Shown piece after piece: positions 18,001 to 21,000 of a DNA stretch of 64,000 bases. Source of the DNA: Escherichia coli (GTDB lineage: Bacteria > Pseudomonadota > Gammaproteobacteria > Enterobacterales > Enterobacteriaceae). Where the stretch lies: the NCBI RefSeq assembly GCF_024700885.2, contig NZ_CP117016.1; one strand, given 5' to 3'. Position 1 is the stretch's first letter; every line of letters begins with the position of its first letter. The position numbers were made by a program.

Positions 18001-21000
18001 AGGGCAACAACACAAGCCGCCCGTTATGATGCAAAGAATACGTTACGGAATGTAACTTTTCATGTTAGTGAAAAAGGTGATACCGGTATTTATGACTTTA
18101 CCAATGCTCAATGGATATTTAAATCTCCCTTATCAACATCTTCATATTCGTATATCGGTCAGTCAGCGGAGGTTAATGGCTATATAAGTGCTAATAAAGA
18201 TAATACGTCATCATGTGGGACATCATCTAAACGGTGGACGCAAGTATATGCAACTAATGGGGCAATAAATACTTCAGACCAGACATTGAAAACAAAGCCA
18301 CTGACAGTAGAGCAACTTTCAGAAATCATGGAGGTGGATCAGGATGCAATTCTTGACGCATGGGGTGACGTAAATATTATCGTTTACCAGTGGTTGTCCG
18401 ATATTAAGGCTAAAGGTTCGGATACTGCTCGTTGGCATTTCGGAGCAATTGCACAGCAGGTAAGAGATGCGTTTCTTGCAAAGGGGATAGATGGAACAAG
18501 ATTTGGCTTGCTATGTCATGATAAATGGGATGATGAGTACCAACCTGTAATGGCACAGCGCAAGGTGTCATTTATAGCTAAATCCCCTGAAGGGGAAGAC
18601 ATCGTTCGCGAATACTTTGAAGAATACGATACTGGTGACACGGAACTGGTTGTACATGCTGGTGAGCGTTGGGGATTGCGTCCAGATGAATGTTTGTGGT
18701 TGGAGGCTGCATTCCAGCGAAGAAGGTGTGAACGCATTGAGTCTCGTTTAACAGAGCTTGAATTGATAATTAAAAAAGCAAAAGAGATAGAGTAGATGGA
18801 TAAAACCCCAATTCATCACGCACTTTGCGCTGTGGTCGCACAGGTACTGGTTGGTCTTTTTACCGGAAACTGGGCTTACGGTGCGATAGCCGGTTGTACG
18901 TTCTTCATTGCTCGTGAACACACCCAGGCAGAATATCGCTGGATTGAAATGTTCGGGCATGGCAAGCGGATTAACATGCCGTGGTGGGGCGGTTTTGATC
19001 CGCGTGCATGGGATGTGGCAAGCCTGATGGATTTTTCTTTCCCAATTATCGGATGCTTATTGGTATGGATTCTTGCATCGTAGTTAACACAGAGTTACCT
19101 ATGAGACAAAACTAAGGTACACAAAGCTTTGCACTGGATTGCAAGGCTTTGTTCTTCTCTGGAGTGTGACATGTTTTTATGACAAAAAATTAGCGCAAGA
19201 AGACAAAAAATCACCTTGCGCTAATGCTCTGTTACAGGTCACTAATACTATCTAAGTGGTTGATTCATAGTGACTGGATATGTTGTGTTTTGTAGCATTA
19301 TGTAGTCTATTTTTTAGACCAAAGATATTGTAACACATTGATATTAATGGATTTTAATGTTTCACGTTCAGCTTTTTTATACTAACTTGAGCGAAACGGG
19401 AAGGTAAAAAGACAAAAAGTTGTTTTTAATACCTTTAAGTGATACCAGATGGCATAGCGCCATCTGGCAGAGTGATTAACTAAACATCGCAGTAATCGAG
19501 GCGCTTGCCAGAGAATGGAAATGGACGTTAAACCCGACCATCGCGCCGCTGGCACCTTCATCGACATCAATACGTTCTACATCCAGCGCGTGAACGGTAA
19601 AAATGTAGCGATGGGTTTCGCCTTTCGGCGGCGCTGCACCATCGTACCCGGTTTTACCAAAGTCGGTACGCGTCTGCAAAACGCCGTCTGGCATTGCTAC
19701 CAGACCAGAGCCAAACCCTTGCGGTAATACGCGGGTATCCGCGGGTAAATTAACAACTACCCAGTGCCACCAGCCGGAGCCAGTTGGCGCATCCGGGTCG
19801 TAGCAGGTGACAACAAAACTTTTCGTTCCCACAGGAACATCATCCCACGCCAGATGCGGTGAAATATTATCGCCATCGTAACCCATGCCGTTAAAGACAT
19901 GACGATGCGGCAACTTATCGCCATCGCGCAGATCATTACTGATGAGTTTCATGAACCCTCCTTTCTAGTTTGCAGAAAGTGTAGCCAGAAACCCTCACGC
20001 TGACTTCCCGTTATTGGCAAAAAAATGTTTCATCCTGCACCGCACGATTAACCGCTGCGGTCAGACGCTGCAACTGTTGCGGGAGAATAATATAGGGCGG
20101 CATCAGGTAAATCAGTTTGCCAAAAGGCCGGATCCAGACACCCTGTTCGACAAAGAATTTTTGCAGCGCTGCCATATTCACCGGACGAGTGGTTTCGACC
20201 ACGCCGATTGCCCCCAGTACGCGCACATCGGCAACCATTTCGGCGTCACAGGCGGGGGCAAGTTGCTCGCGTAGCTGCCCTTCAATAGCCGCCACCTGAT
20301 GCTGCCAGTCGCCAGATTCGAGAATCGCCAGGCTGGCGTTTGCTGCTGCGCAGGCCAGCGGATTGCCCATAAAAGTTGGCCCATGCATAAAGCAGCCGGC
20401 TTCGCCGTTACTGATGGTTTCCGCAACCTCGCGCGTGGTGAGCGTGGCGGAAAGGGTCATTGTGCCGCCGGTTAAGGCTTTACCGAGACATAAAATATCC
20501 GGCGCGATTTCTGCATGTTCACAGGCAAACAGTTTGCCGGTACGACCAAATCCGGTGGCGATCTCGTCGGCAATCAGCAAGATACCTTCGCGATCGCACA
20601 TTTTGCGGATTCGTTTTAACCATTCCGGATGGTACATGCGCATCCCGCCTGCGCCCTGGACAATCGGTTCAATGATCACCGCCGCGATTTCATGACGATG
20701 CGCCGCCATCAGGCGGGCAAAGCCCACCATATCGCGCTCATCCCATTCGCCATCCATGCGGCTTTGCGGGGCGGGAGCAAACAAGTTTTCTGGCAGATAG
20801 CCTTTCCACAGGCTGTGCATTGAGTTGTCCGGATCGCACACCGACATCGCGCCAAAGGTATCGCCATGATAACCATTGCGGAAGGTCAGAAAACGCTGGC
20901 GCGCTTCGCCTTTGGCCTGCCAGTACTGCAACGCCATTTTCATCGCCACTTCTACCGCTACGGAGCCGGAGTCCGCGAGAAAAACGCATTCCAGCGGTTG

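What the first reader, a model, noticed from the sequence alone, without database searches (positions are those of the whole stretch)
18796..19083. Small membrane ORF at the extreme right prophage end (between tailspike and attR)
Seen in sequence: a 95-codon ORF starts at the ATG immediately following the tailspike TAG and encodes a protein with two hydrophobic segments and a tryptophan-rich middle (MPWWGGFDPRAW). Inference: att-proximal positions in lambdoid phages commonly hold lysogenic-conversion or exclusion morons; this may be one, and being co-transcribed with the tailspike it could also be a late accessory factor.
Basis: partly seen in the sequence, partly recalled or inferred. Interest (0 to 1): 0.35.

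Follow-up and report, generated by a model that had tools for sequence, protein, structure and literature searches.

The report
Conserved small membrane gene after tailspike
The 95-codon ORF is a real gene for a small inner-membrane protein that phages of many kinds carry directly after their receptor-binding gene; its function is unknown, and the evidence favours a role late in the lytic cycle over alteration of the lysogen's surface.

Summary
ORF 18796-19083 (+) is 95 codons. Its ATG abuts the TAG of a P22-type tailspike, and it lies 288 bp from a lambda-type attR core (19371-19385).

It is a real gene. dN/dS is 0.12 in frame against 2.6-2.9 out of frame, and 57 alleles carry no stop codon. 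It occurs in 35% of complete E. coli genomes, usually in two copies.

It belongs to phrog_1443, a family of unknown function. Nothing meaningful matches in Pfam, NCBIfam, PADLOC, PDB sequences or folds.

AlphaFold gives three helices at pLDDT 94. Charge bias predicts N-in/C-out, which puts the near-invariant motif (H8, R40-E41, Q44-A45-E46, W72, P83) on the cytoplasmic face.

The gene almost always follows a receptor-binding gene on the same strand: in all 80 close E. coli loci, in 79 of 80 distant loci, and in four of the six other phages examined. Its sequence does not track receptor specificity.

DNA homology between E. coli copies begins at the ATG, and the upstream gaps of 0-92 nt hold no promoter. 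One junction class has a terminator just upstream. Expression therefore probably depends on the late transcript.

The lysogenic-conversion reading is weakened and the late-accessory reading is favoured. The actual function is unresolved.

The parts
18796..19083 (+). 95-aa gene for a three-helix inner-membrane protein (phrog_1443 family; RefSeq WP_032202022.1, 'hypothetical protein')
18793..18798 (+). TAG-ATG stop/start junction with the tailspike gene. There is no intergenic space and only a weak Shine-Dalgarno sequence, which implies translational coupling (inferred).
16210..18795 (+). P22-type tailspike (Head_binding N-terminus, endosialidase-like N extension, C-terminal Peptidase_S74 intramolecular chaperone). 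It is the upstream cistron of the same transcription unit.
18913..19011 (+). Codons 40-72: the conserved juxtamembrane core R40-E41-x-x-Q44-A45-E46-Y47-R48 ... R58 ... P62-W-W-G-G-F ... W72. R40, E41, Q44, A45, E46 and W72 are at least 96% conserved, and the other named residues 73-89%, among 135 sequences less than 70% identical to one another.
19121..19152 (+). 13-bp hairpin followed by TCTTCTCT, 38 nt after the stop codon. It is terminator-like on the + strand and lies inside the lambda sib-homologous region. Homology among the P22-like copies runs through it, to about 19155.
19116..19385 (.). Lambda-type attR: the P arm (88% identical to lambda 27471-27742, including the sib/tI-like hairpin at 19190-19224) and the core GCTTTTTTATACTAA at 19371-19385. 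This is context, not part of the gene.

Best explanation
The ORF encodes a small inner-membrane protein of an uncharacterised but widespread phage family (phrog_1443). It has three helices. The predicted topology is N-terminus in the cytoplasm and C-terminus in the periplasm. A rigidly conserved juxtamembrane domain (H8, R40-E41, Q44-A45-E46-Y47-R48, R58, W72, D79, P83) is predicted to lie at the cytoplasmic face. The gene is the last cistron of the receptor-binding-protein (late) transcription unit and has no promoter of its own. Here it is translationally coupled to the tailspike. It is therefore made when the late operon is on, at low level, in step with the tailspike. I read it as a phage-autonomous late accessory factor, not a lysogenic-conversion gene (about 0.6). 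The role I consider most likely is control of the inner membrane at the end of infection: tuning when or how the lysis machinery fires, through contact with a conserved host inner-membrane or cytoplasmic component (about 0.3 for this specific role). What is shown: it is a real gene under purifying selection, and the synteny, the junction anatomy and the confident three-helix model. What is inferred: topology, late-only expression and function.
For: Real gene: dN/dS 0.12 against 2.6-2.9 out of frame, 57 alleles without stops.

Family: phrog_1443 at E 1e-54. All 463 clusters at 50% identity are stand-alone proteins of about 95-100 aa.

Structure: pLDDT 94.4, helices 4-23, 26-53 and 74-94.

Topology: 5.9 K+R on the N-terminus plus loop side against 0.57 on the other side, over 209 homologues.

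Late co-expression:
- E. coli copies share DNA homology starting at the ATG or 6 nt before it.
- Gaps to the upstream same-strand gene are 0-92 nt, mostly with a good Shine-Dalgarno sequence.
- About 21 loci have an intrinsic terminator between the fibre stop codon and the ATG, so only antiterminated late transcripts could reach the gene.
- No promoter-like site was found in the junctions scanned.

Universal link to receptor-binding genes:
- 80 of 80 E. coli loci.
- 79 of 80 loci of a distant environmental subfamily have a same-strand upstream ORF. 41 of the 66 distinct upstream proteins match a pectate-lyase-like domain and 14 a beta-helix domain.
- The same holds in Halomonas phage phiHAP-1 (a P2-like gene order), two SU10-like podoviruses and an alphaproteobacterial-type siphovirus, all downstream of a fibre gene or its chaperone; in a Comamonas prophage the member follows the gpJ tail-tip protein.

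Lysis link in distant members:
- An endolysin lies two small membrane ORFs downstream in 22 of 63 environmental loci, with overlapping start and stop codons.
- In the Comamonas prophage the member is followed by a 3-TM ORF, a 2-TM ORF and a protein that looks like a lytic transglycosylase by eye (no family match), all overlapping.

Several co-resident copies per genome stay intact (median 2, up to 7). That fits a function each phage needs in cis during its own late phase.
Against: In this window and in all E. coli lambdoid and P22-like phages the gene is far from the lysis cassette, which is complete without it.

The protein lacks the charged C-terminal tail typical of holins. It matches no holin, antiholin or spanin family.

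Adjacency to lysis genes in other phages may follow simply from lysis genes lying after tail genes there.

Two virulent phages that acquired a related tailspike cassette let the gene decay, so it is dispensable for lytic growth at least in them.

In isolated phages the family is mostly in temperate E. coli phages, which would also fit a lysogeny-related benefit.

No expression data were available. Promoter scans are crude, and a promoter inside the tailspike gene is not excluded; two promoter-like sites lie at 18301-18380.

Topology is predicted only.
Confidence: 0.4

Rival explanations
1. Superinfection-exclusion protein of the inner membrane, analogous to T4 Imm, P22 SieA or HK97 gp15. It would block entry of DNA from incoming phages, either in lysogens through low-level expression or during lytic growth.
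For: It is a small inner-membrane protein in the accessory slot next to the receptor-binding gene. That slot also holds known exclusion or conversion genes such as cor, gtr and oac (PMC11436027, PMC3303846; own knowledge for T5 llp and P2 Z/fun). The gene is retained under purifying selection in many prophages, including the defective Rac element of E. coli B. It decayed in two virulent phages. It is mostly found in temperate phages.
Against: There is no promoter of its own, and a terminator lies upstream in one junction class, so expression in a lysogen is not expected. It does not match any PHROG with an exclusion annotation or any PADLOC model. The same protein occurs in podo-, sipho- and myovirus-type phages, which use different DNA-entry routes. 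Two to seven near-identical copies per genome would be redundant for a host-level defence.
Confidence: 0.2
2. A minimal membrane enzyme or metal- or ligand-binding protein. The invariant H8, E41, E46 and D79 (plus Q16 and Q44) would form a site at the membrane interface that acts on a lipid or lipid-linked envelope precursor.
For: Conservation is concentrated on polar and charged residues, at least 95% conserved in sequences otherwise about 35% identical. A conserved small-residue stripe H8-A12-Q16-G20-G24 runs along helix 1. A tandem-dimer model gave pTM 0.73, a weak hint of self-association. The family is seen only in phages and prophages of Proteobacteria among those that could be named.
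Confidence: 0.12
3. Lysogenic conversion of the cell surface (O-antigen or serotype modification), as with the gtrABC or oac genes found between tailspike and att in P22-like phages.
For: The position between tailspike and attR is the classical conversion slot of P22-like phages (PMC3303846, PMC8787464). In vB_EcoP-611R6 an OafA-type O-acetylase lies between the tailspike and the gene.
Against: No homology to GtrA/B/C or to acyltransferases. The protein is 85-94% identical downstream of five tailspikes whose receptor-binding parts are unrelated, so it is not serotype-specific. Its conserved domain is predicted to be cytoplasmic. There is no promoter. It also occurs in lambda-like and P2-like phages in mid-genome.
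Confidence: 0.05
4. No function of its own: a spurious ORF, or a passenger kept only as the conserved right-hand flank across which receptor-binding cassettes recombine.
For: Homology breakpoints sit exactly at its start codon and inside its last helix, at codon 81. This is the pattern of a recombination flank.
Against: dN/dS is 0.12, with no stops in 57 alleles. The family is conserved at 30-50% identity across distant phages with the motif intact. The structure prediction is confident. Where the gene is not needed, it visibly decays.
Confidence: 0.03

Closest known systems
phrog_1443 (PHROGs v4, 'unknown function'); RefSeq WP_032202022.1 and WP_000355360.1, 'hypothetical protein'; a few UniProt entries are named 'Ybl63'
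   Same: Full-length profile match (E 9.7e-55, residues 1-94 of 97). The exact protein is seen on 176 contigs.
   Different: Nothing differs: this is the family. It has no characterised member and no literature under these names.
Inner-membrane superinfection-exclusion proteins: T4 Imm, P22 SieA, HK97 gp15
   Same: All are small phage-encoded inner-membrane accessory proteins that are dispensable for virion formation (PMC11436027, PMC10883804; PMC3430355 is cited there for gp15).
   Different: No sequence similarity. Those genes are expressed early or from the prophage and lie away from the receptor-binding gene (own knowledge). This gene sits in the late unit without a promoter.
Holins and antiholins encoded right after the tail-fibre gene (T7 gp17.5 after gene 17; T4 t after gene 38; own knowledge)
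   Same: A small membrane protein made late, placed directly downstream of the fibre gene. In distant members it heads a run of small membrane ORFs followed by an endolysin.
   Different: No charged C-terminal tail. A strongly conserved polar motif, unlike the poorly conserved holins. No holin family match. In E. coli phages it is separate from the lysis cassette.
Accessory genes linked to receptor-binding genes that block the phage's own receptor: T5 Llp and phi80/N15 Cor
   Same: Encoded next to the receptor-binding gene and transferred together with it.
   Different: Those are outer-membrane lipoproteins matched to one receptor (PMC11436027 for Cor; own knowledge for Llp). This protein has no lipobox, is predicted N-in in the inner membrane, and is the same downstream of five unrelated tailspike specificities.
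Morons in the sense used for HK97 and HK022, such as lambda lom and bor and the P22 gtrABC slot
   Same: A discrete insertable unit with sharp homology boundaries at a module junction. Its G+C content (0.51) is higher than that of the neighbouring tailspike (0.38-0.46).
   Different: It lacks the defining promoter. It depends on read-through from the upstream late gene.

Membership tests
phrog_1443 | Significant full-length match to the family profile | tested here: met
   E 9.7e-55, protein residues 1-94 on profile positions 1-94 of 97
Moron / lysogenic-conversion cassette | Own promoter upstream of the gene | tested here: not met
   0 nt between the tailspike TAG and the ATG. Homology among copies starts at the ATG. 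No promoter-like site in the 0-92 nt junctions scanned. The scan is a crude consensus method.
Moron / lysogenic-conversion cassette | Own terminator downstream | tested here: inconclusive
   The hairpin at 19121-19152 with a weak T tract is part of the lambda sib-homologous region. No terminator was found after the copy in L017.
Moron / lysogenic-conversion cassette | Expressed from the repressed prophage | not testable with these tools
   Needs RNA-seq or Ribo-seq of the lysogen. An intrinsic terminator directly upstream in about 21 loci argues against it.
O-antigen modification genes of P22-like phages (GtrA/B/C, Oac/OafA) | Homology to GtrA-like, glycosyltransferase or acyltransferase_3 families | tested here: not met
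   No Pfam or NCBIfam match above noise
O-antigen modification genes of P22-like phages (GtrA/B/C, Oac/OafA) | Matched to the serotype recognised by the adjacent tailspike | tested here: not met
   The member protein is 85-94% identical downstream of five tailspikes whose receptor-binding parts show no significant similarity
Holin | Small protein with at least one transmembrane helix | tested here: met
   Three helices, two clearly hydrophobic
Holin | Hydrophilic, charged C-terminal tail | tested here: not met
   The protein ends inside helix 3. Mean K+R at the C-terminus is 0.45.
Holin | Encoded beside the endolysin | tested here: not met
   In the window the next feature is attR. Among distant relatives an endolysin lies within two genes in 22 of 63 loci, and other holin-like ORFs lie between.
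Inner-membrane exclusion proteins (Imm, SieA, gp15) | Sequence or profile similarity to a characterised member | tested here: not met
   The only PHROG hits at E below 1 are phrog_1443, 34165, 9191 and 5302. None has an exclusion annotation. PADLOC gave no hit.
Inner-membrane exclusion proteins (Imm, SieA, gp15) | Blocks DNA entry of superinfecting phage | not testable with these tools
   Needs plating and DNA-entry assays
Receptor-blocking lipoproteins (Llp, Cor) | Signal peptide with a lipobox cysteine | tested here: not met
   The sequence MDKTPIHHALCAV has no L-[AS]-[GA]-C lipobox (read directly). The predicted topology is N-in.

The most novel reading that the evidence does not exclude
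phrog_1443 is a new functional class. It would be a minimal three-helix inner-membrane protein with an invariant H/RE/QAE site at the membrane interface that phages of all three tail morphologies keep welded to the 3' end of their receptor-binding genes. It would carry out a so-far undescribed late step, for example a tiny metal-dependent membrane enzyme or a general switch acting on a conserved host inner-membrane machine, rather than being another holin or exclusion protein.
Probability: 0.15. Interest if true: 0.65.

Novelty: new variant of a known kind. Interest (0 to 1): 0.36.

Why it matters
About a third of complete E. coli genomes carry this gene, often in several prophages at once, yet it has no name, no Pfam family and no literature.

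Its fixed position after receptor-binding genes, across unrelated phages and hosts, makes it a useful landmark for the right-hand edge of exchangeable host-range cassettes.

Its strictly conserved polar motif points to one specific molecular contact that should be easy to test by mutation.

Practical consequences depend on which role is correct:
- If it tunes lysis or blocks DNA entry, it would matter for engineering tailspike or tail-fibre swaps and for predicting prophage behaviour.
- If it is neutral cargo, it can be safely dropped from such constructs.

Tried and rejected
**Family and structure searches**
- Pfam, NCBIfam and PADLOC on the protein, and Pfam on 64 diverse members, gave only noise: PhoR N-terminal hairpin, VirB3, cytochrome b561, all below threshold.
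- A profile search of PDB sequences gave no hit at E up to 10.
- The exhaustive search of 1.84 billion representatives was meant to find informative fusions. All 150 best hits shown are stand-alone proteins of 63-146 aa.

**Literature**
- Searches for phrog_1443, WP_000355360 and ybl63 found nothing.
- More general searches on exclusion and on P22-like conversion genes found no paper on this family.
- Kapi1 'hyp24', a gene between tailspike and integrase that was tested for seroconversion (PMC8787464), looked like a possible homologue. It is an unrelated 34-aa ORF on the other strand.

**Ideas tested and rejected**
- A receptor-specific partner of the tailspike: rejected, because there is no covariation with the receptor-binding domain.
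- A dedicated partner of S74 intramolecular-chaperone fibres: rejected, because many upstream genes lack S74.

**Technical dead ends**
- An alignment of 62 distant members was too divergent for locus retrieval. A narrower one worked.
- The metagenome and genome-collection scans were not used. The host range was already clear enough.
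Full report
**What is there**

The window carries the right-hand 19 kb of a P22-like prophage. Virion genes run on the + strand from 361 to 12479. They are followed by an arc/mnt/ant region and a tailspike.

The tailspike has the P22 head-binding domain (E 4.5e-61) and a C-terminal Peptidase_S74 intramolecular chaperone. Its TAG at 18793-18795 is directly followed by the ATG of a 95-codon ORF, 18796-19083.

Thirty-two bases after the stop codon, homology to the P arm of lambda attP begins: 19116-19389 is 88% identical to lambda 27471-27742. The lambda core GCTTTTTTATACTAA lies at 19371-19385 and occurs once in the window. 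It is followed by ybhB and bioA.

The window is identical to the E. coli MLI114 chromosome over the 701 bases compared. There the ORF is annotated as hypothetical protein WP_032202022.1.

**It is a real gene**

I compared the first 81 codons in 57 distinct alleles taken from 78 loci.
- dN/dS is 0.12 in the annotated frame and 2.6-2.9 in the two shifted frames. No allele has a stop codon.
- The word-indexed search found 569 homologues.
- The exhaustive profile search found 463 clusters at 50% identity. All 150 best hits shown are 63-146 aa and none is fused to another domain.
- The ORF is present in 1883 of 5426 complete E. coli genomes, with a median of 2 and a maximum of 7 copies per genome.

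**What the protein looks like**

It matches phrog_1443 over its full length (E 9.7e-55), a family of unknown function. Nothing significant turns up in Pfam, NCBIfam or PADLOC, nor among PDB sequences.

AlphaFold2 with a 52-sequence alignment gives mean pLDDT 94.4 and three helices: 4-23, 26-53 and 74-94. Helices 1 and 2 form a hairpin. Helix 2 continues out of the hydrophobic zone as residues 40-53.

Fold searches return only generic helical bundles.

Among 135 sequences less than 70% identical to one another, the best conserved positions are:
- R40 and E41 (0.99)
- E46 (0.98)
- W72 (0.97)
- Q44, A45 and P83 (0.96)
- H8 (0.95)
- R48 and R58 (0.89)
- D79 (0.83)

The hydrophobic helices themselves vary freely, apart from a stripe of small and polar residues on helix 1: H8-A12-Q16-G20-G24.

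Lysine plus arginine counts are 5.9 on the side holding the N-terminus and loop 40-73, against 0.57 on the side holding the helix 1-2 turn and the C-terminus. By the positive-inside rule the protein is N-in/C-out, with the conserved domain at the cytoplasmic face. This is a prediction, not a demonstration.

A tandem-dimer model reached pTM 0.73, but only in one of five models. I treat it as a weak hint of self-association.

**Where the family sits**

This is the most informative result.

In all 80 close E. coli loci the gene directly follows, on the same strand, a receptor-binding gene or its small companion. Three kinds of upstream gene occur:
- P22-type tailspikes of at least five kinds, all with the Head_binding domain
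- short fibres with an S74 chaperone domain
- lambda-type side tail fibres followed by a 92-104-aa protein (phrog_1361)

The pattern recurs in distant members with 30-50% identity:
- Halomonas phage phiHAP-1, between the tail-fibre assembly gene and the sheath gene
- a Comamonas prophage, after the gpJ homologue
- two SU10-like podoviruses, after a tail fibre or a DUF4376 chaperone
- an alphaproteobacterial-type siphovirus, after its host-specificity genes
- an environmental subfamily, where 79 of 80 loci have a same-strand upstream ORF; 41 of the 66 distinct upstream proteins match a pectate-lyase-like domain and 14 a beta-helix domain

The adjacency is not always of this form. In the Aeromonas jumbo phage ACP1 the tailspike lies downstream of the member instead. 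In Aeromonas phage 4_4512 the upstream 698-aa protein matched no family.

The protein does not track receptor specificity. Downstream of five tailspikes whose receptor-binding parts show no significant similarity, it is 85-94% identical.

**How it is expressed (inferred)**

Among the E. coli copies, DNA homology begins at the ATG or 6 nt before it. It ends either at codon 81 or just after the hairpin at 19121-19152.

The distance from the upstream stop codon is 0-92 nt, usually with a good Shine-Dalgarno sequence. In this window it is 0 nt and the Shine-Dalgarno sequence is weak, which suggests translational coupling.

About 21 loci have an intrinsic terminator (GGGGCCGAGCGCCCC followed by GTTTTATT) between the fibre stop codon and the ATG. 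No promoter-like site is found in any junction scanned.

Upstream of the tailspike, the window has a terminator-like site after ant. It also has a single weak promoter-like match, fewer than expected by chance.

The gene therefore appears to depend on antiterminated late transcription. That is the opposite of a self-contained moron.

**What it does**

No tool result gives a function, so what follows is inference.

The arguments for a phage-autonomous late role are:
- the expression anatomy described above
- intact copies in several co-resident prophages
- intact members inside structural or lysis operons of phages that look virulent

In the environmental subfamily the gene heads a chain of overlapping ORFs: member, two small membrane proteins, then an endolysin. 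This occurs in 22 of 63 loci. In the Comamonas prophage it is followed by 3-TM and 2-TM proteins and a protein that looks like a lytic transglycosylase by eye, with no family match.

This is why I place control of the membrane step of lysis first, at about 0.3. Three points weigh against it:
- The lysis link is absent in E. coli phages.
- The protein does not look like a holin.
- The link to the receptor-binding gene is the universal one.

Exclusion at the inner membrane comes second, at about 0.2. For it: the slot is one where exclusion genes accumulate, the family is mostly in temperate phages, and two virulent phages (PBM-2 and 6947) that acquired a related S74 tailspike cassette kept only a decayed remnant of about 160 nt. 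Against it: there is no way to express the gene in a lysogen.

A minimal enzyme or metal site is possible, at about 0.12, given the H/E/E/D pattern. Nothing supports it beyond conservation.

Serotype conversion is unlikely, at about 0.05.

**Comparison with known systems**

The gene is a member of phrog_1443 and of nothing else. It resembles Imm, SieA and gp15, and the holins that follow fibre genes, in size, location and timing. It fails the tests that define each of those families (see the membership table). It has the sharp boundaries of a moron but not its promoter.

I file it as a new variant of a known kind: a small phage accessory inner-membrane protein.

**Verdict**

The gene is ordinary in the sense that it is a catalogued hypothetical phage gene. 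Three features are worth attention: how common it is, its strict synteny with receptor-binding genes across unrelated phages, and its invariant polar motif.

Interest is 0.36.

Noticed in passing
window 12831-14089 (- strand): A PIN-domain protein and a 239-aa hypothetical protein on the opposite strand. They lie between the gene-16-like ejection gene and the arc/mnt/ant region, the slot where P22 carries sieA. This may be defence or toxin-antitoxin cargo.
   Followed up: no
window 19116-19389: Lambda-type attR P arm (88% identical to lambda 27471-27742). It includes two hairpins, 19121-19152 and 19190-19224; the second is followed on the - strand by a T run, like lambda sib/tI. The prophage therefore combines P22-like virion genes with a lambda-type integration and retroregulation module.
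   Followed up: partly
L002 3597-3733 (vB_EcoP-611R6); also L049 and L081: A copy of the lambda P-arm/sib stretch lies upstream of these phages' copy of the ORF, although they integrate elsewhere (CPS-53-type integrase, tRNA-Arg). It looks like a fossil of an earlier att junction carried along with the gene.
   Followed up: partly
L091 3938-4093 (phage PBM-2, N4-like); L090 3938-4093 (phage 6947): Both virulent phages carry an identical decayed remnant of the ORF: the N-terminal half is lost and '...ANIPWWGGFDWRAWDLPSLLD*' is retained. It lies right after an S74-type tailspike whose C-terminus resembles the one in the window. The cassette moved as a unit and the small gene was then lost.
   Followed up: yes
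L030 3965-3979 and about 20 other loci: An intrinsic terminator (GGGGCCGAGCGCCCC followed by GTTTTATT) sits between the stop codon of an S74 fibre gene and the ATG of the small gene. About 20 nt are left for a ribosome-binding site.
   Followed up: yes
L001 4386-7835; L089 5386-8831: The sitABCD manganese/iron transporter operon lies immediately downstream of the gene, on the opposite strand. This is seen in a lambda-like phage (Lambda_ev203) and on the 150-kb plasmid pMS20655A, which also carries lambda-like tail genes.
   Followed up: no
window 16117-16209: The mechanical tailspike ORF starts 31 codons upstream of the head-binding domain. RefSeq starts the gene at 16210. The stretch 15900-16100 is very A+T-rich (G+C 0.26). 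A terminator-like hairpin lies at 15843-15862, just after ant.
   Followed up: partly
L088 (E. coli B derivative NEBExpress, Rac prophage): The laboratory B strain carries an intact copy (WP_000355360.1) in Rac, where K-12 has stfR-tfaR. It follows a 245-aa fibre fragment and the 92-aa phrog_1361 protein, and precedes a tfa remnant and pinR. This is a convenient strain for experiments.
   Followed up: no
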